A model generated the notes under the pieces. That model had not been told where the DNA came from, ran no database searches, and saw only the letters and a list, made by a program, of their open reading frames with translations. A stretch of 64,000 nt of DNA. It comes from Candidatus Moranbacteria bacterium UBA4824 (GTDB taxonomy: Bacteria > Patescibacteriota > Minisyncoccia > Moranbacterales > UBA2206). Of this stretch, positions 37,855 through 62,600 are shown one piece after another (position 1 is the first letter of the stretch; every line of letters starts with the position of its first letter). The position numbers and the translations under genes were made by a program. The stretch spans positions 11,722 to 75,721 of the forward strand of contig DHFM01000046.1 in assembly GCA_002400405.1 (NCBI GenBank), in the 5' to 3' direction.

Positions 37855-37950
37855 ACCGATTCGAATCTTCGAATGTATGCGAATTCTCGAATCTACGAAT
37901 TTTTATTTAGCTTATTCGTAGATTCGAATGCATTTGTAGATTCGAATCGC
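37855..37950. repeat. Repeat family A variant array (multiple ATTCGAAT / TACGAAT units in direct and inverted orientation)
   Basis: attcgaatcttcgaatgtatgcgaattctcgaatctacgaat...ttattcgtagattcgaatgcatttgtagattcgaatcgc. Lies 5' of the 7TM gene ATG and also encodes the C-terminal tail of ruvC. Confidence 0.55.
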
Positions 37951-38467
37951 GGTTAAGGTTATTAATTTTTCTACTATTAATGTGGCAAAGCGCAATTGCA
38001 ATCGCATCGGCTGTGTCATCCGGTTTTGGTAAATTTGCTAAATTCAAAATATTCTTAGTCATCAACTGCACTTGCTTTTTTTCCGCTCGGCCGTAGCCCG
38101 TTAGAGCTTGTTTGACTTGGAGTGGAGTGTAGCTAGCTACTCTAACATTATTTTGGCATAAAGTCAAGAGAATTGCCCCCCTGGCTTGGGCGACGGTGAT
38201 AACCGTTTTTTGATTTTTAAAGAAGAAGATTTCTTCTACGCCTGCTTCTTGGGGTTGATATTTTTCAATTATATCTTTCAAATCACGAGATATTTCAAAA
38301 ATTCTATCCTCGTCAGATTTTTCAGGAGAAGTGGCGATGTGGCCATATGCCAAAGGTTTCATTTCCCCATCTTTTTCTTCTAATATAGCCCAGCCAGTTG
38401 TAGCCGTCCCAGGATCAATTCCAAGTACTCGCAAAGTTTTTTTTGAAGTTTCAGCTTTCTTTTTCAT
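37907..38467 (-). CDS. ruvC: Holliday junction resolvase RuvC
   Basis: LGIDPGTATTGWAIL...PQEAGVEEIFFFKN...DDTADAIAIALCH. C-terminal 20 aa encoded by the repeat A array. Confidence 0.85.
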   Translation of the reverse strand: MKKKAETSKKTLRVLGIDPGTATTGWAILEEKDGEMKPLAYGHIATSPEKSDEDRIFEISRDLKDIIEKYQPQEAGVEEIFFFKNQKTVITVAQARGAILLTLCQNNVRVASYTPLQVKQALTGYGRAEKKQVQLMTKNILNLANLPKPDDTADAIAIALCHINSRKINNLNRDSNLQMHSNLRIS

Positions 38468-38606
38468 ATCTATATTATAGCTTAAAAGGAAATTTTTTTG
38501 AAGGGCTTGGATTTTTTTCGTCTGCTATGGACAAAATTCTACGAATATGATTAGATGTAGTATTCAGTAGTGATAGAATTTTTCACAACCAATAAGGAGG
38601 TGCACA

Positions 38607-39095
38607 TTGAAAAGAGGAATAGTGCCGTTTGCATTTGGAGTTCCATGGATGATTTTGTCGAATCATCGAATCGCCCTTATAGCCTCAAAAAAAGCTCACA
38701 AACTTGGGGCGCCGGTATATACTCAGCTTGATATTCGAATTGAGGCGGGTATCGAAGTTGAGTTTACCGAGGAACAGCCTGGCAATCCGCCACCAACTTT
38801 ACGATTTGCAAGAGGAGCGGTGCAGTGGGCTCTGCGCAAAAACCTCACAGATTTGTGGATTGTCGCCGCAAAACCTCACCTATGGCGTTGTGTTCGAGAC
38901 CTTACTTGCGCTATTCAGGAGGAGAAAGCGCAAATTAAAATTCATGTCTGTGAAGAAATAAATCAATATCCTGAAGATGAGTGGTTTTGTGCCGACTCGA
39001 TGCAGGAGTGGACACAATCGCGGAAGAATTGGCAAAGCAGGGAGCGAATCATAAAGATCATCCCGTTCTTTATTTACAAACTCATTGCAAGCTGA
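38607..39095 (+). CDS. Hypothetical protein encoded by a high-GC (about 50%) foreign-looking gene
   Basis: 162-aa ORF with TTG start, 7 nt after a perfect AAGGAGG Shine-Dalgarno (38594-38600). Composition clearly GC-richer than neighbours. No recognisable family. Confidence 0.5.
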   Translation: MKRGIVPFAFGVPWMILSNHRIALIASKKAHKLGAPVYTQLDIRIEAGIEVEFTEEQPGNPPPTLRFARGAVQWALRKNLTDLWIVAAKPHLWRCVRDLTCAIQEEKAQIKIHVCEEINQYPEDEWFCADSMQEWTQSRKNWQSRERIIKIIPFFIYKLIAS

Positions 39096-39368
39096 ACAGC
39101 AGAAGCCCCTTATGGAAAATTAATTCCATCGGGGGCTTCTTTATTTCCAAGAAATTCTCCATTAATTAAGTATTTTGAATTTATTATGCTGTATATATAA
39201 GTGCAGTAAAAATCAAAATCACAAAACAATCTCATATCTCGTCGCTTTGTCTTAGCTGATTTTTTATATCACATTTTTATCTATGTGAGTATATGGGAAT
39301 ATATGTGAGGAAGAATTAACAAAAAAACCGCCAGATGGCGGAATTTTGTTTATAGAAAGTGTAATAAA

Positions 39369-39551
39369 TTATTTTTTTAGCTTTCTTTTTTTTATGACTT
39401 TATTGATTAAAGAAAGTTGATCTTTATTGGCTAAATGAATGGCTTTTTTAATAACTTTCTTCTTTTCTCTTGCTGGTAAATCAAAAAACACAGTTGGAGT
39501 GGAGACCTTACCGTAATCGCAACCTATTAATTTTAGTAATTTAGTTACCAT
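39369..39551 (-). CDS. Small basic protein downstream of the zeta-like gene (possible antitoxin/partner)
   Basis: 60-aa K-rich ORF. 8-nt gap from the zeta-like gene stop. Confidence 0.25.
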   Translation of the reverse strand: MVTKLLKLIGCDYGKVSTPTVFFDLPAREKKKVIKKAIHLANKDQLSLINKVIKKRKLKK

Positions 39552-39559
39552 ATATTTAA

Positions 39560-40231
39560 TTATAACATTTTTTTAAGCGTTTGTGGAGTGTAGTCAATTC
39601 TTAGCAATTTGTCAATCGAAGGAATGTTTATTCGGAATTTCTCAACATCGTGCTTAAAATCTTTTTCTATTAAAAATAATATAACTTTATCGCCGAAATC
39701 TTTCTTTATAGCATTTACATTCTCTTTGGCTTTAAAGAAAGTATCTACAAAAACGTCTTTAGTTATTCGACGTCCTTCTATTTCTTCTCGTGCTTTTGTA
39801 AATTCCCAAGCGATTTTTGGATCTTGATAGAGATAGAAAATAGCTACAAGTCTATGATGATCAAGTGCGCGCGATATATTTTTTCTAGCAACACCAATAC
39901 TTGATAGAGTTCCATCTATAATGGCGTCATATTTTTTATGTATTATATGATCATATAAAATTTCAACACCCTTACTGCAAGCCGATTGAAATAGGTGCGA
40001 GTTTGATCCTGTGTAATCTGGAAATAATTCTCTGATTTCATCAGCATCAATTCTAACTAGAGGTTTCTTGAGTATTTCTATTAAGTTTTTTGAGAATTCT
40101 GTTTTTCCAGCACCAGGAGATCCAGCCATAAAAATAGTTGCAGGAATTTTTTTCGATTCGTAAATAGCCGGATTGGCAAATTTTTGAATCAAAATCTTTT
40201 TATTAGACTTGATATATTCAACGGGGTTCAT
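39560..40231 (-). CDS. Zeta-toxin-family P-loop kinase-like protein
   Basis: 223 aa. Walker A FMAGSPGAGKTEF. Layout RIDADEIR...DAIIDGTL consistent with zeta/UNAG-kinase-like fold. Confidence 0.5.
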   Translation of the reverse strand: MNPVEYIKSNKKILIQKFANPAIYESKKIPATIFMAGSPGAGKTEFSKNLIEILKKPLVRIDADEIRELFPDYTGSNSHLFQSACSKGVEILYDHIIHKKYDAIIDGTLSSIGVARKNISRALDHHRLVAIFYLYQDPKIAWEFTKAREEIEGRRITKDVFVDTFFKAKENVNAIKKDFGDKVILFLIEKDFKHDVEKFRINIPSIDKLLRIDYTPQTLKKML

Positions 40232-40273
40232 TTTTTAAGTAAAAATTTCTATAAATTATCAAAAATTTTTTAA

Positions 40274-40408
40274 TATCGCCCAGCCAGTCGTGGCCGTACC
40301 AGGATCGATCCCAAGAATTCGCAGAGTTGATTTTGAAGTTTCAGATTTATTTTTCATAACTATATTATAGCTTAAAGGGGAATTTTTTTGAAGGGCTTTG
40401 ATTTTAAA
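40274..40408 (-). pseudogene. Duplicated ruvC promoter + 5' fragment (first ~27 codons), about 88% identical to 38384..38520
   Basis: The two segments match along the same strand. The fragment encodes MKNKSETSKSTLRILGIDPGTATTGWAIL and then ends. It sits directly upstream of the zeta-like gene. Confidence 0.6.
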
Positions 40409-40482
40409 AAATAAAAAATAACCCAAGAGGGTTATTGATGAAAATTATAGCATAGCGCGCGACATTTCAAAAAACGGCTGTA

Positions 40483-40890
40483 TTATTTTTTGTAAATAAA
40501 TTTGTAAATAAAAAACATCAAAATTCCCCAAATGATAGTATCTGCGATTATTCCAAATGTTGAAATTTGGTTTACAACTTCACCATCTATACCATTAACA
40601 CCCCAATAGTAATATGCAAAGGGTGCACCTATTGTGTTGCAATCACCAGGGCAACCCACACAACAACCACCACATTGACAGTGTACCATATTTGATAATG
40701 AAATAGGTGATAAGAAAATAATCACAGCAACAATTACCACTATAAAAATTGAGATAATTAAATTTTTATTATTCATATGATTTTGATGTTTCTTTAAGGG
40801 TGTTAATTTTTTAATGATTTTAAATTTATTTGAATTACAGAGGTCTTTTTCTGAATATAAGATAAATATAGCATAATTTTTGTAAATCAC
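40483..40890 (-). CDS. Small Cys-rich membrane protein
   Basis: 135 aa. Central TM. Cys cluster HCQCGGCCVGCPGDC. C-terminal TM. Confidence 0.35.
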   Translation of the reverse strand: MIYKNYAIFILYSEKDLCNSNKFKIIKKLTPLKKHQNHMNNKNLIISIFIVVIVAVIIFLSPISLSNMVHCQCGGCCVGCPGDCNTIGAPFAYYYWGVNGIDGEVVNQISTFGIIADTIIWGILMFFIYKFIYKK

Positions 40891-40933
40891 AAAGCAACCT
40901 CATATCTCGTCGCTTTGCCTTCACTAATTTTTT

Positions 40934-42019
40934 TTATATTTTTTTATACCTCGTGCTTCTGCCTTGGCCTATTCTTTCTATTTTTTTCAACTTCAACAAC
41001 ACTTCCAGCGCCTGTTTGACTGTTGGTCGAGGAATATTTGTTTCGGTTGCAATTTTGCCTGTTCCGGCGACGTCAACTTGCTCGAAAAATTTCCAAACTG
41101 CAAGTTGTTTTTCTGATAGAATTTTTTCGATATTTTCTTTTGACAATAATTCAATAGCTGATTGGGATTGCTTTAGCAAAATCGTAAAAAAGAAATCAAG
41201 CCACGGTGCAATATTTTCATTTCTTGTGTGAAAAGTTTTTTGACTGCGTCTAAGCGCGAGATAATAATCAGTTTTGTTATCTTCAACTAATTTCTCATGT
41301 GAAACATAAGGCATATACAAATAGCCACTTTGAAGAAGTAGTAAATTTGTCAAAATTCTGGAAATTCTTCCATTTCCATCTTGAAAAGGATGGATGGCTA
41401 AAAATTCAACCAAAAAATTGGCGATTATGAGTAGGGGATGGTATTTTTTTTCAGTTAACAAAAAATTAGTCGATCCAATCAGTTCCATCATTTCTTTTGG
41501 CGTGAGATAGGGGGAAGTCGGATTGAAAATTATCCCAACTTCTTTTCCTTCTTGATCATAGGCAACAACTTTATTTTCACCGAATTTATAATCTCCCAAA
41601 TGTCCCTGATCTTTGTCCGAATATTTCAGAAGTTCTTTGTGAAAATGTTTAACGGAACTTTCATTGAATTTCAAACTTCCCCAAGAATTAAAAATATTTT
41701 CTAATAGTTCATAATATCCTTGGACTTCTTGCTTGTCGCGGTCGGCAAATTTTTGAATATTTATGCCTTGCATTACCTTTTCAATATCCTCGTCAGTTAG
41801 TTTCACGCCTTCAATGCGCGTCGATGCGCCAGTAGAAGTTATCAAAACAGATCGCTTGAGACGACCCAACGCTTGTGGGCTCAACTGGGCGCCAGTCACC
41901 CAATTGCCCTTTAATTCATCAATCTTGGCGATTTTCGAAATTATTCCAGCGGGAATATTACTAAGTCTTCTGGAGAACTTATCTGTAATGGTGCTATTTT
42001 TTTGTATTTTTGTAATCAT
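40934..42019 (-). CDS. Fic/Doc-family protein (AMPylase-type) with C-terminal wHTH
   Basis: Canonical Fic motif HPFQDGNGRISR. Confidence 0.8.
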   Translation of the reverse strand: MITKIQKNSTITDKFSRRLSNIPAGIISKIAKIDELKGNWVTGAQLSPQALGRLKRSVLITSTGASTRIEGVKLTDEDIEKVMQGINIQKFADRDKQEVQGYYELLENIFNSWGSLKFNESSVKHFHKELLKYSDKDQGHLGDYKFGENKVVAYDQEGKEVGIIFNPTSPYLTPKEMMELIGSTNFLLTEKKYHPLLIIANFLVEFLAIHPFQDGNGRISRILTNLLLLQSGYLYMPYVSHEKLVEDNKTDYYLALRRSQKTFHTRNENIAPWLDFFFTILLKQSQSAIELLSKENIEKILSEKQLAVWKFFEQVDVAGTGKIATETNIPRPTVKQALEVLLKLKKIERIGQGRSTRYKKI

Positions 42020-42119
42020 ATTATTTGGATATATTAACTATGTCCAATTATATCCAATTAAATCATTATAGTCAAGTATGCCCATTGACTAAAAACCTTA
42101 AGTTTGCTATACTGTACAT

Positions 42120-42707
42120 ATGAGTACAGTAAAAAATGACGTAAAAATAAATAAAGGCTCAAATAAGCAAAGATTTGCTGACTTGGCTAAAATAGGTATT
42201 TCAGTCTTTCACTGCGATGATTTGGCTAATTTATGGCAGATAAAAAACCCTAATACTTTGCATACTACGCTAAAGCGATATGCTAAAGAAGGGCTGATTA
42301 TACGAATTCAAAGAGGGTTATATTCTTTTCAGCCAGTAGAAAAAATTGATTTGTTTCTTTTGGGGGTGAAAATATTGCATCGGTATGCTTATATTAGCAT
42401 GGAAACTATTCTGGCTAGGAATGGGATAATTTTTCAAGAGATTCCAAAAACTTCCATTATCAGTTCTATTTCCAAGAATTTTTCTGTTGCCGGTCGAGAA
42501 TACCACTGCCGTCGTTTGGCGGATAAATATCTATATAATGACGCCGGAATTGTTTTGGAAAACGGAGTACAGGTCGCGTCAACAGAAAGGGCGGTGGCGG
42601 ATATCCTCTATTTCAATCCGCGCTATTATTTTGACGGCGATCGCTTGATTGATTGGAAAAAAGTCCGCGCTATCCAAAGAGAAATAGGTTATCCACAAAA
42701 TCGATAA
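42120..42707 (+). CDS. AbiEi-like antitoxin / transcriptional regulator
   Basis: 195 aa. IQRGLYSF motif. Upstream of and overlapping the frame of an AbiEii-like gene. Paralog of 28146..28775. Confidence 0.5.
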   Translation: MSTVKNDVKINKGSNKQRFADLAKIGISVFHCDDLANLWQIKNPNTLHTTLKRYAKEGLIIRIQRGLYSFQPVEKIDLFLLGVKILHRYAYISMETILARNGIIFQEIPKTSIISSISKNFSVAGREYHCRRLADKYLYNDAGIVLENGVQVASTERAVADILYFNPRYYFDGDRLIDWKKVRAIQREIGYPQNR

Positions 42708-42733
42708 AAATAATAATTAAAAAAAACAAAAAA

Positions 42734-43483
42734 ATGATTACTCCAACTCCAAAAGATGCTGAGCATAAAGCATGGATGTTTCGTCTACTAGGCGCGCTAT
42801 TTGATGACGCTTTTTTATCTAGCGTTCTATTTTTCAAAGGCGGAACTTGCGCAGCTATGCGCGAACTTCTAGATCGATTTTCAGTGGATCTTGATTTTGA
42901 TTATATTAGCGAAAAAGGAGAAATCAAAAAGGTTCAAGAAAAAATGGAAGAAATTTTTCAAAAACTCGGTTTGGAGATAAAAGACAAAAGTCGAAATGTT
43001 CCGCAATATTTTTTGAAATATCCAACCACTGCAGGTGGAAGAAATACGCTAAAAATAGACATCTGCTTTCCTGTACCGCAATTTAATCAATATGAAAGCG
43101 CACAACTTTCTGAGATTGATCGCATTGTGAATTGTCAAACAGTTGAAACGATGATGGCTAATAAGCTAATAGCGCTCATTAATCGATTTGAAAAAAACGG
43201 CCATATTGCTGGTCGAGATGTGTATGATGTCCATTATTTTTTTTGGAATGGTTTTCGTTATGACGCGAAAATCATAGAGGATATAAGAAAATGTTCGGTG
43301 GAAAAATTCTTCGAGAATTTGGTGGTTTTTGTTGCTGACAAAATAAATCAAGAAGTTATCGATCAAGATCTCAATATGCTTTTGCCCAACGACAAATTTC
43401 AAATGATGCGAAAAATTCTCAAGCAAGAAACTCTAATGATGCTCAAAGACGAGTTGGCAAGGATAAAGAATGGAAAGTTATAA
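42734..43483 (+). CDS. AbiEii-family nucleotidyltransferase toxin (DUF1814)
   Basis: FFKGGTCAAMRELLDRFSVDLDFD nucleotidyltransferase motif. ATG at 42734 preferred over the ORF-track start 42653. Confidence 0.6.
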   Translation: MITPTPKDAEHKAWMFRLLGALFDDAFLSSVLFFKGGTCAAMRELLDRFSVDLDFDYISEKGEIKKVQEKMEEIFQKLGLEIKDKSRNVPQYFLKYPTTAGGRNTLKIDICFPVPQFNQYESAQLSEIDRIVNCQTVETMMANKLIALINRFEKNGHIAGRDVYDVHYFFWNGFRYDAKIIEDIRKCSVEKFFENLVVFVADKINQEVIDQDLNMLLPNDKFQMMRKILKQETLMMLKDELARIKNGKL

Positions 43484-44191
43484 ATTATCAAAAATCTCCT
43501 CCACATCTTCTTGATCATCAAGAGTTTCGAGAAGTTTGTCGTAGCTTTCTTGGGTGGATGAGTCAATTTCGACAGTGGATTTTGGAATGAAAGTTAAGTT
43601 GGATTCGGAAATTTTAATATTTTTTTCTTCTAAATTATTTTGCACTTTTTGCAGGTCTTGCGGAGCAGTAAAAATAATTAAATTATTTTCTTCAATTTTG
43701 GTGTCTTTGGCGCCAGCTTCAATAGCGAGCATTTCCAATTCATCGGCATCTTTACCAGATAGATCAATTGTAATGGCGCCGACTTGCTCAAAATTCCACA
43801 TGGAACTGCCGGATTCGCCGAATTTTCCGCCGGCTTTAGTGAGAATGCTTTTAATTTCACTTACAGTACGATTTTTGTTATCGGTAGAAGTTTTGATGAG
43901 CATCATGATATTTCCAGGGCCTTTAGCTTCATAGATAATTTCAACAATTTCTGCGCCACTCATTTCACCTGTTCCTTTCTTGACTGCTTTGTCGATATTA
44001 TCTTTAGGCATATTAAACTCCTGGGCCTTTTTCATGGCCATTCGAAGTTTGAAATTTGTGTCTGGGTTGCCACCGCCTTCACGTGCGGCGATGACGATCG
44101 GCTTGGCAAGTTTAGTGAAAATCTTGGCGCGTTTAGCGTCATTTACCCCTTTTCTTTGTTTTATTCCCGCCCAATGTGAGTGTCCTGACAT
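43478..44191 (-). CDS. yebC: YebC/PmpR-family transcriptional regulator
   Basis: MSGHSHWAGIKQRKGVNDAKRAKIFTKLAKPIVIAAREGGGNPDTNFKLRMAMKKA is near-consensus YebC. The ORF-track N-terminal extension (to 44254) runs into repeat F and was rejected. Confidence 0.85.
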   Translation of the reverse strand: MSGHSHWAGIKQRKGVNDAKRAKIFTKLAKPIVIAAREGGGNPDTNFKLRMAMKKAQEFNMPKDNIDKAVKKGTGEMSGAEIVEIIYEAKGPGNIMMLIKTSTDNKNRTVSEIKSILTKAGGKFGESGSSMWNFEQVGAITIDLSGKDADELEMLAIEAGAKDTKIEENNLIIFTAPQDLQKVQNNLEEKNIKISESNLTFIPKSTVEIDSSTQESYDKLLETLDDQEDVEEIFDNL

Positions 44192-44196
44192 AAGAT

Positions 44197-44275
44197 CATG
44201 AAGCATGAAGCATAAAACATGAAGCAATCCGTATTTTTTTGTTTTATGTTTCATGTTGTATGTTACATGTTACAT
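44197..44275. repeat. Repeat family F copy (palindromic: catgaagcatgaagcataaaacatgaagca ... gttttatgtttcatgttgtatgttacatgttacat)
   Basis: Arms are reverse-complementary. Same catgaaaca/tgtttcatg core as 26941 and 54430. Confidence 0.55.
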
Positions 44276-49333: not shown

Positions 49334-52300
49334 CTAAAGATCAGTGACTCGTTCCACTTCTTCAAGTGATGTCCCACCTTCCAAAACTTTCAAAATTCCA
49401 TCTTGTGTCATTGTGAGCATGCCGAGTTCGACGGCTTTTTCTTCTAGTTCGGCGGTGATGGCGCCACGGGTGACGAGGTCTTGAATTTCACGGGTTAGTT
49501 GGAAAACTTCACTAACAGTCATGCGACCTTTGTAACCTAGACCGTTGCATTTTTCGCAACCTTTTGGATGATAAATCTCTAAAACTTTGGGAATGTCCAC
49601 TCCCGCCTTTGGACTAATAGTGGCTAAAACTTTTTCAATCATTTCTTTTTCTTTTTCATTTGGCTGGACTTTTTCTTTGCAATCACAAAGGCGACGCACG
49701 AGGCGTTGCGCCATAAAGGCATTGACGGCGGTGGCGATGTCGGACGGGGAAACGCCCATATTGATCATTCGCGCCACTGCTCCGGCGGCGTTGTTGGTGT
49801 GAATTGTAGAAAGCACCAGATGTCCTGTGAGTGAAGCTTGCACGGCTACTTGGGCAGTTTCATCGTCACGAATTTCACCAATCATCATGATATCCGGATT
49901 TTGACGAAGCAGAGCGCGCAGAGCGGTGGCGAAAGTATAGCCTTCTTTGTCGTTGACTGGAGTTTGCAAAATTCCTGGGAGTTGATATTCGATTGGATCT
50001 TCTACGGTGATTATTTTTACTTCCGGTTTATTAAGCATACTGAGAACACTATAGAGTGTGGTAGTTTTTCCACTGCCTGTTGGGCCGGTGTTTAAAATTA
50101 CACCATTAGGTTTTTTTATTTCTGAAATTATTTTGTCTAAGTTTTGTTGTCTAATACCAAGCTTAGTAAGATCCAATTCCATCGATGAACCGCGGAGGAG
50201 TCGCATCACAATTGTTTCACCATAACCACCCAGGATGATCGAAACACGCACATCAATATTTTTTTCGGAGATTGTGATGTCGTCATCAAATTTTATACTA
50301 AAGCGACTGTCAATCACTCCTTGGCGCACTTCAGTTTTCACACCGGAAAGAATTTTAATTTCGCCAAGTAAGGCCGGATATTCATTGAGTGGAAGAGTGG
50401 CAACATTTTGCAAAATTCCATCAATGCGAAAACGAATTTTGACATCATCTTTTTCTGGTTCGATATGAATGTCGCCAACATTGAGAATGGTAGCGGCTGA
50501 AAAAACAATTTTGTTAATATCAGTAGTTTTGGCTGAGCGTAAAATTTCTTCCAGTTTTTTGAAATCCGCTATATTTTCTTGAGCCGAGGTATATTGACTA
50601 TTTTCAATAAGAATTTTTTTGCCCAAAGTTTGGGACATTAATTTCTCATAAATACTTTCCAAAAATTCTCCTTGTCCTGTCGCACTTTCCACTTCATCAA
50701 TGGAAGTGACTCCGGCAATAGCTTTCAAAATTCCATCTTGAAGCATAGTGATCATTCCGGATTCCAAAGCGGCCATAGCTAATTCTGTTTCGCCGGCCAT
50801 TTCTAAAATTAATTTTTCGATATCTTCATTAATCGTGAGTACTTCAAAAATTCCTACGCGACCCTTATACCCCAAACCATTGCATTTCGGACAACCTTTT
50901 GGGCGATAGAGTTTTTCAATGTCTTTGGGAATTTCTACTTTAGCTTTAGGCGAAATAATGGAGAGAATTTTTTTGATAGATTCTATTGATTCTTTTGCTG
51001 GAACATAGGCTTCCTTGCAATCACAAAGTTTTCGCACCAGCCTTTGACCGATAACAGCATTCATAGCGGGGGACATCAAAGTTGGTTTTACTCCAAGCTC
51101 AATAAATCTTGGAATAGCCCCGACAGCATTATTAGTGTGGAGTGAAGACAAAACTAAATGCCCCGTAAGTGCAGAATTAACCGCGATATCAGCCGTTTCA
51201 TCATCGCGAATTTCACCCACTAAAATAACATCTGGATCCTGACGGACAATAGCGCGCAGGCCTTGAGCGAAAGTATAACCTCGTCCTTTTTCTATTTGAG
51301 TTTGAGAAATGCCGGATAATTCATATTCAATCGGATCTTCAATAGTAATGATTTTTTTGTCCGGAGTGTTGAGTTTGTTGATGATTGAATATAGGGTAGT
51401 AGTTTTTCCCGAACCGGTTGGTCCGGTGTTTAGAATCATTCCATTAGGTGAGAGCATTTGTTTTTGCACAGTTTCATAGGCTAAACCTTGGAGACCTAAA
51501 TTTTCCACGCTTACTTTGATTGAATCAGGATCTAGAAGGCGCATTACAACTGACTCACCAAAATTACCAGGGATAATACTCACACGCAAAGCAATTTTTT
51601 TCTCTGCTAGATTTATCTCAAAAGTTCCGTCTTGGGCGATATCGCGAAGATTGAGTTTCATCTTGGACATCAATTTTATGCGCGAGATGATTGTGTTGAA
51701 AACATTGAGAGGTAAAAAGGCGACATCTTGCAAATTGCCATCAATTCGATAACGCAGACGAATTTCTTTTTCTTGCGGTTCAATGTGGACATCGCTGGCA
51801 CCAAGCTTGTAGGCTCCGGCTAGCATAATATTTAGAACTTGAGTAGTGGGAAGTTCTTTAATACGTTGTTTTAGGGTGATCAAATCTTTCATTTCTTCCT
51901 CAAACTTATTCAAATCATCTCCACTAAGACTCAAACTCATTTGATCAAGGATATCTACAAAAACAATCTGTTTATATTTTTCCCAAACGCGATTGATATT
52001 TGAGGTGGAAACGACAAAAAGTTTTATCTGCCAACCTTTTTCAGTTTTTAGATTTTCTATAAAATCATGAGTTTCTTGATTTCTTGGATCGCGAGATATG
52101 ATAGTGACGACTTTGCCACTTCTGTGAATTAGGGCAATGCCGAATTTTCGCGCTTCCTCCTCGGTTAGGAGACGAATATCATCTTTGGAAATTGGGATTA
52201 GATTAGTGTCGACATAGGGAAGATTAAGTTCGGCTGCTAAGGCGCTAGCCATTTCCTCCTCCTCTTTTTTTCTAAATGTAGAAAGAATTTTGGCGGTTTT

Positions 52301-52363
52301 ATTTTCCTGTTGAATTTCATCAGGTTTTACATTTTGAACTTTTGGTTTGAGAATTTTGATCAT
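49334..52363 (-). CDS. Tandem-fused double PilB/GspE-family secretion ATPase (two complete ATPase units in one 1009-aa polypeptide)
   Basis: Two Walker A sites (both NTGPTGSGKTTTLYS). Two Asp boxes and His boxes. Two tetracysteine motifs (CDCKE...CPKCNGLGYKGR and CDCKE...CEKCNGLGYKGR). Two C-terminal MLQDGILK/MTQDGILK motifs. N-terminal GspE_N-like region before each. Confidence 0.8.
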   Translation of the reverse strand: MIKILKPKVQNVKPDEIQQENKTAKILSTFRKKEEEEMASALAAELNLPYVDTNLIPISKDDIRLLTEEEARKFGIALIHRSGKVVTIISRDPRNQETHDFIENLKTEKGWQIKLFVVSTSNINRVWEKYKQIVFVDILDQMSLSLSGDDLNKFEEEMKDLITLKQRIKELPTTQVLNIMLAGAYKLGASDVHIEPQEKEIRLRYRIDGNLQDVAFLPLNVFNTIISRIKLMSKMKLNLRDIAQDGTFEINLAEKKIALRVSIIPGNFGESVVMRLLDPDSIKVSVENLGLQGLAYETVQKQMLSPNGMILNTGPTGSGKTTTLYSIINKLNTPDKKIITIEDPIEYELSGISQTQIEKGRGYTFAQGLRAIVRQDPDVILVGEIRDDETADIAVNSALTGHLVLSSLHTNNAVGAIPRFIELGVKPTLMSPAMNAVIGQRLVRKLCDCKEAYVPAKESIESIKKILSIISPKAKVEIPKDIEKLYRPKGCPKCNGLGYKGRVGIFEVLTINEDIEKLILEMAGETELAMAALESGMITMLQDGILKAIAGVTSIDEVESATGQGEFLESIYEKLMSQTLGKKILIENSQYTSAQENIADFKKLEEILRSAKTTDINKIVFSAATILNVGDIHIEPEKDDVKIRFRIDGILQNVATLPLNEYPALLGEIKILSGVKTEVRQGVIDSRFSIKFDDDITISEKNIDVRVSIILGGYGETIVMRLLRGSSMELDLTKLGIRQQNLDKIISEIKKPNGVILNTGPTGSGKTTTLYSVLSMLNKPEVKIITVEDPIEYQLPGILQTPVNDKEGYTFATALRALLRQNPDIMMIGEIRDDETAQVAVQASLTGHLVLSTIHTNNAAGAVARMINMGVSPSDIATAVNAFMAQRLVRRLCDCKEKVQPNEKEKEMIEKVLATISPKAGVDIPKVLEIYHPKGCEKCNGLGYKGRMTVSEVFQLTREIQDLVTRGAITAELEEKAVELGMLTMTQDGILKVLEGGTSLEEVERVTDL

Positions 52364-61931: not shown

Positions 61932-62600
61932 ATGAGAAAAATAGAATTTGCTAATGAGGAATATTATCATATATTTAATCGCGGAGTAGATAAGCGCGAA
62001 ATATTTTTAAGCTCTCAAGAATACGAGAGATTTATTTTGGCGATGCAATTATTAAATGATAAAGAAGGCGGACTAATGATCAAATGGAGGGATTACAAAA
62101 AAGCCAATCCAACCGCTAAATTAGAGTCTTTCCTAAAGCGAAGCTTTAGGAAGAGGGAACCGCTGGTTGAGATTATTGCATATTGTCTAAATCCAAATCA
62201 TTATCATTTTATTTTGAAACAAATTGAAGATAATGGTATTGAAAGGTTTATGCATAAAATTGGGACAAGTTATACAAAATATTTTAATAAGAAAAATAAG
62301 CGAAGCGGAGTTTTGTTTCAAGGAGTTTTCAAATCAGTTCATATTGATTCCAATGAATACTTATTGTATCTTTCGGCTTATGTGAATAAAAATAATTTTA
62401 TTCACAGATACAATAAAAATGATGACTGGTCATATTCCAGTTTATTGGATTATTTAGGTAAGAAAAAAAGCGGATTTTTAAATATGAATGCAGTTTTAGG
62501 ACAATTTAAAAGTATAAATGAATATGAAGAATATTTGAAAAATAATGCTTTATATATGAAAGAAAAAAAGGAAATGGAGGAATATTTAATTGAAGAATAA
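61932..62600 (+). CDS. IS200/IS605-like Y1 (HuH) transposase of the REP-associated (RAYT) type
   Basis: N-terminal YHIFNRG motif. HuH motif HYHFIL. Downstream Tyr region (YLSAYVNKNN). Flanked by, and internally carrying, the REP-like palindrome. Confidence 0.6.
   Translation: MRKIEFANEEYYHIFNRGVDKREIFLSSQEYERFILAMQLLNDKEGGLMIKWRDYKKANPTAKLESFLKRSFRKREPLVEIIAYCLNPNHYHFILKQIEDNGIERFMHKIGTSYTKYFNKKNKRSGVLFQGVFKSVHIDSNEYLLYLSAYVNKNNFIHRYNKNDDWSYSSLLDYLGKKKSGFLNMNAVLGQFKSINEYEEYLKNNALYMKEKKEMEEYLIEE
62128..62153. repeat. REP-like palindrome copy 3, in-frame inside the RAYT CDS (encodes SFLKRSFRK)
   Basis: Identical 26-mer to copy 1. No stop codon introduced. Confidence 0.65.

What the first reader, a model, noticed from the sequence alone, without database searches (positions are those of the whole stretch)
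38384..40408. Small integrated island at the 5' end of ruvC, bounded by a duplicated ruvC promoter/5' fragment, carrying a high-GC orphan gene and a zeta-toxin-like kinase
135 bp containing the ruvC upstream region and first ~27 codons (38384..38520) recur at 40274..40408 with about 88% identity in the same orientation. The second copy is a truncated ruvC 5' fragment that now sits directly upstream of a zeta-toxin-family P-loop gene (39560..40231) plus a 60-aa partner ORF.

Between the repeats lies a convergent gene (38607..39095) whose GC content (about 50% versus about 33% background) marks it as recently acquired. It has a TTG start and a perfect AAGGAGG Shine-Dalgarno. It has no recognisable family.

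The arrangement fits an integrative element that targeted the 5' end of ruvC and carried a replacement 5' segment. The zeta-like gene is left under a copy of the ruvC promoter.
Basis: seen in the sequence. Interest (0 to 1): 0.7.

Follow-up and report, generated by a model that had tools for sequence, protein, structure and literature searches.

The report
Recombination scar in yebC–ruvC hotspot
The duplicated start of the DNA-repair gene ruvC is real, but it is not the edge of a foreign integrated island: it is the scar left when two versions of the same chromosomal interval between yebC and ruvC were stacked in tandem, in a toxin-antitoxin and defence-gene hotspot of a Moranbacteria-like ultra-small bacterium.

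Summary
The 138-nt direct repeat is real (38378-38515 vs 40268-40405, 87% identity). So are the truncated ruvC fragment, the zeta-family kinase and its 60-aa partner. The "integrated island" reading mostly fails.

- **Junction:** copy B's ruvC fragment (codons 1-29) is fused to the last ~18 nt of yebC, a motif found only twice in the window. That is a tandem-duplication or circle-closure junction of the yebC-to-ruvC interval itself. Relatives L030, L025 and L026 carry similar yebC-3' scars.
- **No recombinase:** no integrase is encoded in the 64 kb.
- **zeta-orf60 is resident:** more distant relatives have zeta-orf59-yebC-ruvC.
- **Copy B is a working allele:** its differences from copy A in conserved codons are all synonymous, so it diverged as a functional ruvC.
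- **orf162 is not an orphan:** it has 45.4% GC, not ~50%. It belongs to a Patescibacteria family of 348 cluster representatives with a YdcF-like fold. It is a self-contained ~640-bp cassette that is GC-rich in nearly every host.

Best explanation: illegitimate, probably microhomology-assisted recombination anchored on ruvC homology stacked two alleles of a fast-turnover hotspot that also holds AbiE, Fic and small membrane genes. The case is ordinary in kind but gives a clear example of how such a hotspot grows.

The parts
37907..38467 (-). Intact ruvC (186 aa).
   Evidence: Pfam RuvC 3e-49; NCBIfam equivalog 1.5e-64.
38378..38515 (-). Repeat copy A: the ruvC promoter region (48 nt) plus codons 1-29 of the functional ruvC.
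   Evidence: the repeat finder family D1; alignment; promoter-like TTCAAA-17-TATAAT at 38502-38474, 6 nt before the ATG.
38524..39150 (+). Self-contained orf162 cassette: promoter-like TGGACA-17-TTAGAT, a ~50-nt leader, AAGGAGG, the TTG-start CDS 38607-39095, and a terminator hairpin at 39103-39147.
39159..39212 (+). Possible relic of an AbiEi promoter/operator plus its first 5 codons (D3a).
   Evidence: 74% identical to 42082-42135, which carries the AbiEi start. Weak (E ~7.6e-4), so treated as tentative.
39216..39317 (-). Delta-Fic deletion scar: a Fic upstream segment fused to the last 16 codons of an L027/L033-type Fic gene (D2a is 39216-39269).
   Evidence: The same spacer is contiguous in L025, L026 and L029 but is split by an intact Fic gene in L027 and L033. 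The core reads KKIGEGKATRYEVAL*.
39328..39341 (.). Bidirectional terminator-like hairpin between orf60 and the orf162 side.
   Evidence: CCGCCAGATGGCGG with T-runs on both strands.
39369..39551 (-). orf60, the small conserved partner of the zeta-family kinase.
   Evidence: 90% identical in L026, 78% in L117, 69% in L114. Homologous small ORFs overlap the zeta stop in L119 and L120. The model is mostly one long helix.
39560..40231 (-). Zeta-toxin-family P-loop kinase (223 aa).
   Evidence: PF06414 1.1e-37. Walker A, catalytic Asp and DGTL motifs align to PezT 2p5t. More than 3000 homologues in Patescibacteria.
40249..40266 (-). Remnant of the yebC 3' end (…IFDNL*), fused to the ruvC fragment. 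This is the junction scar.
   Evidence: ATTTTTGATAATTTATAG matches only the true yebC stop region at 43478-43495. There are 2 matches in 64 kb against 0.01 expected by chance. Sequences shown.
40259..40357 (-). Truncated ruvC' ORF (MKNKSETSKSTLRILGIDPGTATTGWAILKNF*).
   Evidence: The N-terminal 16 residues are identical to the functional RuvC of L027.
40268..40405 (-). Repeat copy B: ruvC promoter copy plus codons 1-29.
   Evidence: promoter-like site at 40392-40364. The junction is reproduced exactly in an independent Logan assembly, L106.
40417..40436 (-). Terminator-like hairpin downstream of orf135, just upstream of copy B.
   Evidence: The same hairpin precedes both ruvC promoter copies in L030.
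40483..40890 (-). orf135, a small Cys-rich membrane protein that occupies the variable slot of the first unit.
   Evidence: 93% identical in L029, where it directly precedes an intact ruvC. That is the empty site for the second unit.
40884..40937 (-). D2b: a second relic of a Fic 3' end, just after the resident Fic gene.
40934..42019 (-). Fic-domain protein (SoFic-like).
   Evidence: Pfam Fic 3.4e-15; PADLOC SoFic 2.3e-41.
42120..43483 (+). AbiEi (42120-42707) and AbiEii (42653-43483), a type IV toxin-antitoxin / abortive-infection pair.
   Evidence: Pfam, NCBIfam and PADLOC.
43478..44254 (-). yebC (YebC/PmpR family), the left border of the hotspot. Its last 18 nt are the source of the scar motif.
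   Evidence: NCBIfam 5.9e-86; motif.

Best explanation
The block is a mosaic made by recombination within one chromosomal hotspot, not an integrated mobile element.

In this Moranbacteria-like lineage the normally tiny interval between yebC and ruvC has become a slot for toxin-antitoxin, defence and small accessory genes. These are exchanged between strains using the conserved flanks. The window carries two versions ('alleles') of that interval stacked head to tail:
- Unit 1: yebC | AbiEii/AbiEi | Fic | Fic relic | orf135 | terminator | ruvC promoter and ruvC codons 1-29.
- Unit 2: last ~18 nt of yebC | zeta-orf60 | delta-Fic scar | orf162 cassette | ruvC promoter and the complete ruvC.

The only novel joint is ruvC codon ~29/30 fused to the yebC 3' end. 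That is the joint expected if a DNA segment running from the end of yebC to the start of ruvC, taken from a related strain, was added next to the resident copy. Two routes fit:
- a homologous crossover in ruvC plus one illegitimate joint in an A-rich microhomology (homology-facilitated illegitimate recombination);
- equivalently, Campbell-type insertion of a circularised fragment through the ~138-nt ruvC homology.

Consequences, which are inferred: ruvC keeps an intact 5' end and promoter. The spare promoter copy now drives a 32-codon ruvC' remnant followed by zeta-orf60, ending at the 39328-39341 terminator. The orf162 cassette is an independent, self-expressed insertion in the hypervariable single-gene slot next to the ruvC promoter.

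Shown: the anatomy, the scars and the comparative states. Inferred: the recombination pathway, its direction and the expression pattern.
For: 1. Junction: the yebC-3' motif occurs only at the true yebC stop and abutting copy B, with 0.01 matches expected by chance.
2. Recurrence in relatives: L030 has ruvC'(…GWAILEK…)-EEIFDNL* followed by different cargo and then an intact ruvC. L025 has a ~420-nt cassette between the yebC stop and a second yebC-3' copy that abuts AbiEii. L026/L111/L112 have a 33-nt yebC-3' remnant before zeta.
3. Hotspot: the yebC-to-ruvC gap is under 220 nt in 28 of 39 loci (RuvC ≤73% identical) but 1.5-5.0 kb, with different cargo, in the five closest lineages.
4. Each unit exists alone elsewhere: L029 has orf135 (93%) followed directly by an intact ruvC, and the L026 lineage has zeta-orf60-X-ruvC.
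5. Both units share the delta-Fic scar, so both descend from the same locus layout.
6. Copy B evolved as a working gene. Copies A and B differ at 7 synonymous and 4 non-synonymous codons, and all 6 differences in conserved codons 15-29 are synonymous. The L030 pair differs at 4 synonymous and 0 non-synonymous codons. Copy B's N-terminus equals that of L027 RuvC.
7. Copy B is 0.87-0.90 identical to L025/L026 ruvC, like the gene body (0.85-0.96). Copy A is 0.79-0.83.
8. No integrase in 64 kb, and no tRNA or Rfam hit.
9. The junction is identical in an independent assembly (L106).
10. HFIR is an established RecA-dependent route that uses 3-10 bp of microhomology (PMC6382021).
Against: - The exact crossover cannot be read. 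The joint lies in an A-rich run (ruvC GAAGAAAAA vs yebC GAGGAGATTTTT) and does not match the simple microhomology prediction without an extra 2-nt loss. Microhomology is therefore plausible but not demonstrated.
- L001 and L030 both join ruvC codons ~25-37 to the last 18-24 nt of yebC, and all four yebC remnants are only 17-33 nt long. That clustering is tighter than random illegitimate events would give. It could point to a site preference, a shared ancient junction or a dedicated mechanism.
- Copies A and B share 11 of 12 nt at -48..-37, a stretch that other relatives lack. That hints at common ancestry or gene conversion between the copies rather than wholly separate origins.
- The direction of the event (which unit is resident) is only suggested by identity gradients.
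- Natural competence of this organism was not tested.
Confidence: 0.7

Rival explanations
1. Intragenomic tandem duplication of the yebC-3'-to-ruvC-5' segment, by slipped misalignment or unequal crossing-over at a short GAAGAAA-type repeat. One or both copies later had their cargo and ruvC 5' end replaced by homologous exchange with other strains.
For: - The same junction type is predicted, and the circular-permutation joint fits.
- A GAAGAAA-like string is present at both parental sites in L001, L025 and L030, which would explain recurrence at the same place.
- The L030 copies are still ~94% identical.
- Both window units share the delta-Fic scar and the -48..-37 extension.
Against: - It needs extra steps (duplication, then replacement of the cargo and of a ruvC 5' end) to reach 13% divergence with purely synonymous change in conserved codons.
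- No relative with two identical units was found among 39 loci.
Confidence: 0.17
2. One reading: an integrase-driven integrative element that targets the 5' end of ruvC, carries a replacement 5' segment, and brought in zeta-orf60 and the GC-rich gene as foreign cargo.
For: - Direct repeats flank a 1.75-kb insert, and ruvC is restored.
- An empty site exists in L029.
- orf162 has the highest GC in the window.
Against: - No integrase, recombinase or transposase lies in the block or within 20 kb.
- The right end of the 'element' is a piece of the chromosomal neighbour yebC.
- zeta-orf60 has host-like GC (31.8% and 27.3%) and is syntenic with yebC and ruvC in relatives.
- orf162 is a separate cassette with its own boundaries.
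- The repeats are 138 nt and 13% diverged, with no identical core typical of an att site.
Confidence: 0.05
3. An unrecognised site-specific cassette-stacking system. The last ~20-30 nt of yebC, perhaps together with the ruvC 5' region, acts as an attachment site where circular cassettes are inserted by a recombinase encoded elsewhere, giving an integron-like array of TA and defence cassettes.
For: - Four lineages have short yebC-3' remnants (17-33 nt) at the start of cargo units.
- In L025 a single ~420-nt cassette is bracketed by 16-19-nt yebC-3' repeats, which looks like att duplication.
- L001 and L030 have nearly the same pair of joined sites.
Against: - The remnant left ends differ (17, 19, 24 and 33 nt).
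- No recombinase candidate lies near any of the loci examined.
- In L026 the remnant abuts an IS end, so at least that case has another cause.
- No conserved cassette-borne site such as attC was seen.
- The ruvC' pieces are ordinary gene fragments.
Confidence: 0.06
4. Metagenome assembly chimera that joins two strain variants of the locus.
For: Strain-level variation clearly exists at this locus, and Logan contigs break inside orf162.
Against: - The joint ruvC'::yebC-3'::zeta is identical in a MEGAHIT contig (ENA ERZ27315071) and a Logan contig of run SRR5324142 that spans orf624 to orf162.
- The two sides share no long k-mer that could cause a false join.
- Analogous joints occur in unrelated assemblies (L030, L025).
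Confidence: 0.02

Closest known systems
Homology-facilitated illegitimate recombination (HFIR) during natural transformation (de Vries & Wackernagel 2002; summarised in PMC6382021)
   Same: One side of the incoming DNA is anchored by homology (here the ruvC 5' region and body). The other side is joined illegitimately at a very short A-rich match. The result adds heterologous DNA next to the anchor and can leave a partial duplicate of the anchor.
   Different: There is no experimental evidence here. The microhomology at the joint is ambiguous, competence of the organism is unknown, and the donor DNA is another allele of the same locus rather than truly foreign DNA.
Campbell-type genomic islands and prophages that carry a replacement end of their target gene
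   Same: Direct repeats of the target-gene end flank the insert, and the target gene stays functional because the incoming DNA supplies a substitute 5' end and promoter.
   Different: There is no integrase and no short identical att core. The far end of the insert is a fragment of the adjacent chromosomal gene yebC, and the cargo is syntenic with the locus in relatives.
Defence/TA-gene hotspots between conserved core genes (defence islands; named from general knowledge, not searched here)
   Same: Conserved flanks (yebC, ruvC) border strain-specific sets of AbiE, Fic/SoFic, zeta-like and small unknown genes, with deletion scars (delta-Fic) and an IS in some strains.
   Different: This hotspot is described here in CPR/Patescibacteria at yebC-ruvC. 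It shows tandem stacking of whole alleles, marked by flank-gene fragments.
Epsilon/zeta and PezA/PezT type II toxin-antitoxin systems (PMC3062530, PMC10532202)
   Same: The 223-aa protein scores 1.1e-37 on the Zeta_toxin model and keeps the Walker A, catalytic Asp and (D/E)GT motifs. It is paired with a small co-transcribed protein.
   Different: The small partner is downstream of the kinase, or overlaps its stop, instead of lying upstream. It is unrelated in sequence to epsilon or PezA. Substrate and toxicity are unknown, and the best PDB sequence hit is actually L-seryl-tRNA(Sec) kinase (1.9e-5), ahead of PezT (5.7e-4).
YdcF / DUF218 proteins (E. coli YdcF, PDB 3ca8)
   Different: Sequence identity is 7%. 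No Pfam DUF218 hit was found for orf162 or for 10 other family members. The protein is shorter (162 vs 259 aa), and the family has its own invariant motifs (PGNPPPTLR, AAKPHLWR).

Membership tests
Integrase-mediated integrative element / genomic island | Element-encoded tyrosine or serine recombinase (or transposase). | tested here: not met
   Pfam scans of all 58 large ORFs of the window found none. The only transposase-like hit is an IS200-like Y1 domain at 61932-62600.
Integrase-mediated integrative element / genomic island | Direct repeats (attL/attR) flanking the insert. | tested here: inconclusive
   Repeats exist (138 nt, 87%), but they are long and diverged with no identical core. Copy B continues into a yebC fragment.
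Integrase-mediated integrative element / genomic island | Cargo is foreign to the locus: absent from the neighbourhood in relatives, with atypical composition. | tested here: not met
   zeta-orf60 is syntenic with yebC and ruvC in L026 and L107-L118, and its GC is 31.8% / 27.3% against a 34.5% mean. Only orf162 is compositionally atypical, and that is a family trait.
Integrase-mediated integrative element / genomic island | Empty site in a related genome. | tested here: met
   L029 has orf135 (93%), then an intergenic region (78%), then an intact ruvC with no duplicate.
Segmental stacking by illegitimate recombination (HFIR or tandem-duplication junction) | A novel joint that connects the distal end of a segment to its proximal start (circularly permuted order of locus flanks). 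| tested here: met
   ruvC codon ~29 is fused to the last ~18 nt of yebC. The motif is unique to those two places. The same type of joint occurs in L030.
Segmental stacking by illegitimate recombination (HFIR or tandem-duplication junction) | Microhomology of a few bp at the illegitimate joint. | tested here: inconclusive
   GAAGAAA-like strings lie at both parental sites, but the observed joint (TTA-AAAAA-TTTTTG) needs an extra 2-nt loss. The L030 joint is more complex.
Segmental stacking by illegitimate recombination (HFIR or tandem-duplication junction) | An adjacent homologous anchor shared by donor and recipient. | tested here: met
   There is 138 nt of ruvC promoter and 5' homology, continuing into the ruvC body. 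An identity gradient along ruvC is suggestive of a crossover.
Segmental stacking by illegitimate recombination (HFIR or tandem-duplication junction) | A DNA-uptake or RecA pathway active in the organism. | not tested
   Only a PilB-like T2SSE ATPase was noticed (49334-52363). comEC, dprA and recA were not searched for.
Epsilon/zeta (PezAT) toxin-antitoxin | Zeta-fold phosphotransferase with a Walker A motif and a catalytic Asp. | tested here: met
   PF06414 1.1e-37. GSPGAGKT, RIDADEIR and DGTL align with PezT GQSGAGKT, IIDGDSFR and EGTL.
Epsilon/zeta (PezAT) toxin-antitoxin | A cognate epsilon- or PezA-type antitoxin encoded upstream in the same operon. | tested here: not met
   Upstream lies only the ruvC'/yebC scar (or yebC/orf624 in relatives). 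The conserved small partner is downstream and has no family hit.
Epsilon/zeta (PezAT) toxin-antitoxin | Toxicity through UNAG-3'-phosphorylation, neutralised by the partner. | not testable with these tools
   Needs expression and biochemical assays. NCBIfam PezT scores 27 bits against a cutoff of 470.
DUF218 / YdcF family (for orf162) | Match to the Pfam DUF218 model or significant sequence similarity to YdcF. | tested here: not met
   No Pfam hit for orf162 or for 10 family members. The profile search against PDB sequences found nothing below E = 0.98.
DUF218 / YdcF family (for orf162) | YdcF-like alpha/beta fold. | tested here: met

The most novel reading that the evidence does not exclude
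The recurrent short yebC-3' remnants at the head of each cargo unit (window, L025, L026, L030), together with the near-identical pair of joined sites in the window and L030, reflect a dedicated and so far unrecognised cassette-capture mechanism in CPR bacteria. This would be an integron-like array that uses the end of yebC, and possibly the ruvC 5' region, as the attachment site, served by a recombinase encoded elsewhere in the genome.
Probability: 0.07. Interest if true: 0.7.

Novelty: new member of a known kind. Interest (0 to 1): 0.3.

Why it matters
The finding corrects a tempting misreading: flanking repeats plus a GC-rich gene do not by themselves make an integrated island. It also gives a cleanly resolved example of how an accessory-gene hotspot grows in streamlined CPR genomes. 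Whole alleles of an intergenic slot are stacked, and fragments of both flanking core genes are left behind as datable scars.

It documents the yebC-ruvC interval as a toxin-antitoxin and defence hotspot in a Moranbacteria-like clade.

It also flags two uncharacterised but widespread Patescibacteria modules that are ready for experiment:
- a zeta-family kinase with a conserved downstream ~60-aa partner;
- a solitary, GC-rich, self-expressed 162-aa YdcF-fold gene cassette with no conserved neighbours.

None of this overturns current understanding.

Tried and rejected
- **tRNA or known RNA as integration target:** ARAGORN and Rfam found nothing in the window.
- **Integrase hunt:** negative across all large ORFs.
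- **D2 repeat (39216-39269 / 40884-40937) as a regulatory RNA or recombination site:** rejected. It is the last 16 codons of a Fic gene, i.e. a deletion scar.
- **orf162 leader as a riboswitch-like element:** RNAalifold on 9 leaders gave 0 pairs.
- **orf162 as a functional partner of zeta or ruvC:** rejected. It is not next to ruvC in 20 genomes, no neighbour family recurs in more than 2 of 21 loci, and the L026 lineage has zeta-orf60 without it.
- **GC excess as proof of recent acquisition in this genome:** rejected as stated. It is family-wide.
- **Sequence link of orf162 to DUF218:** none found. The exhaustive profile search found only a compact family of 348 representatives.
- **AFDB fold search:** that library was unavailable.
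- **orf60 structure:** the model is a single long helix, too simple for a fold search.
- **Sliding-window breakpoint test along ruvC:** only suggestive, because the RuvC N-terminus is intrinsically variable.
- **Prediction that an intact yebC lies directly upstream of zeta in some relative:** not found. Relatives instead show zeta-orf59 upstream of yebC (L114-L118), or an IS abutting the yebC remnant (L111, L112). The 'Z-type allele' is therefore inferred from remnants only.

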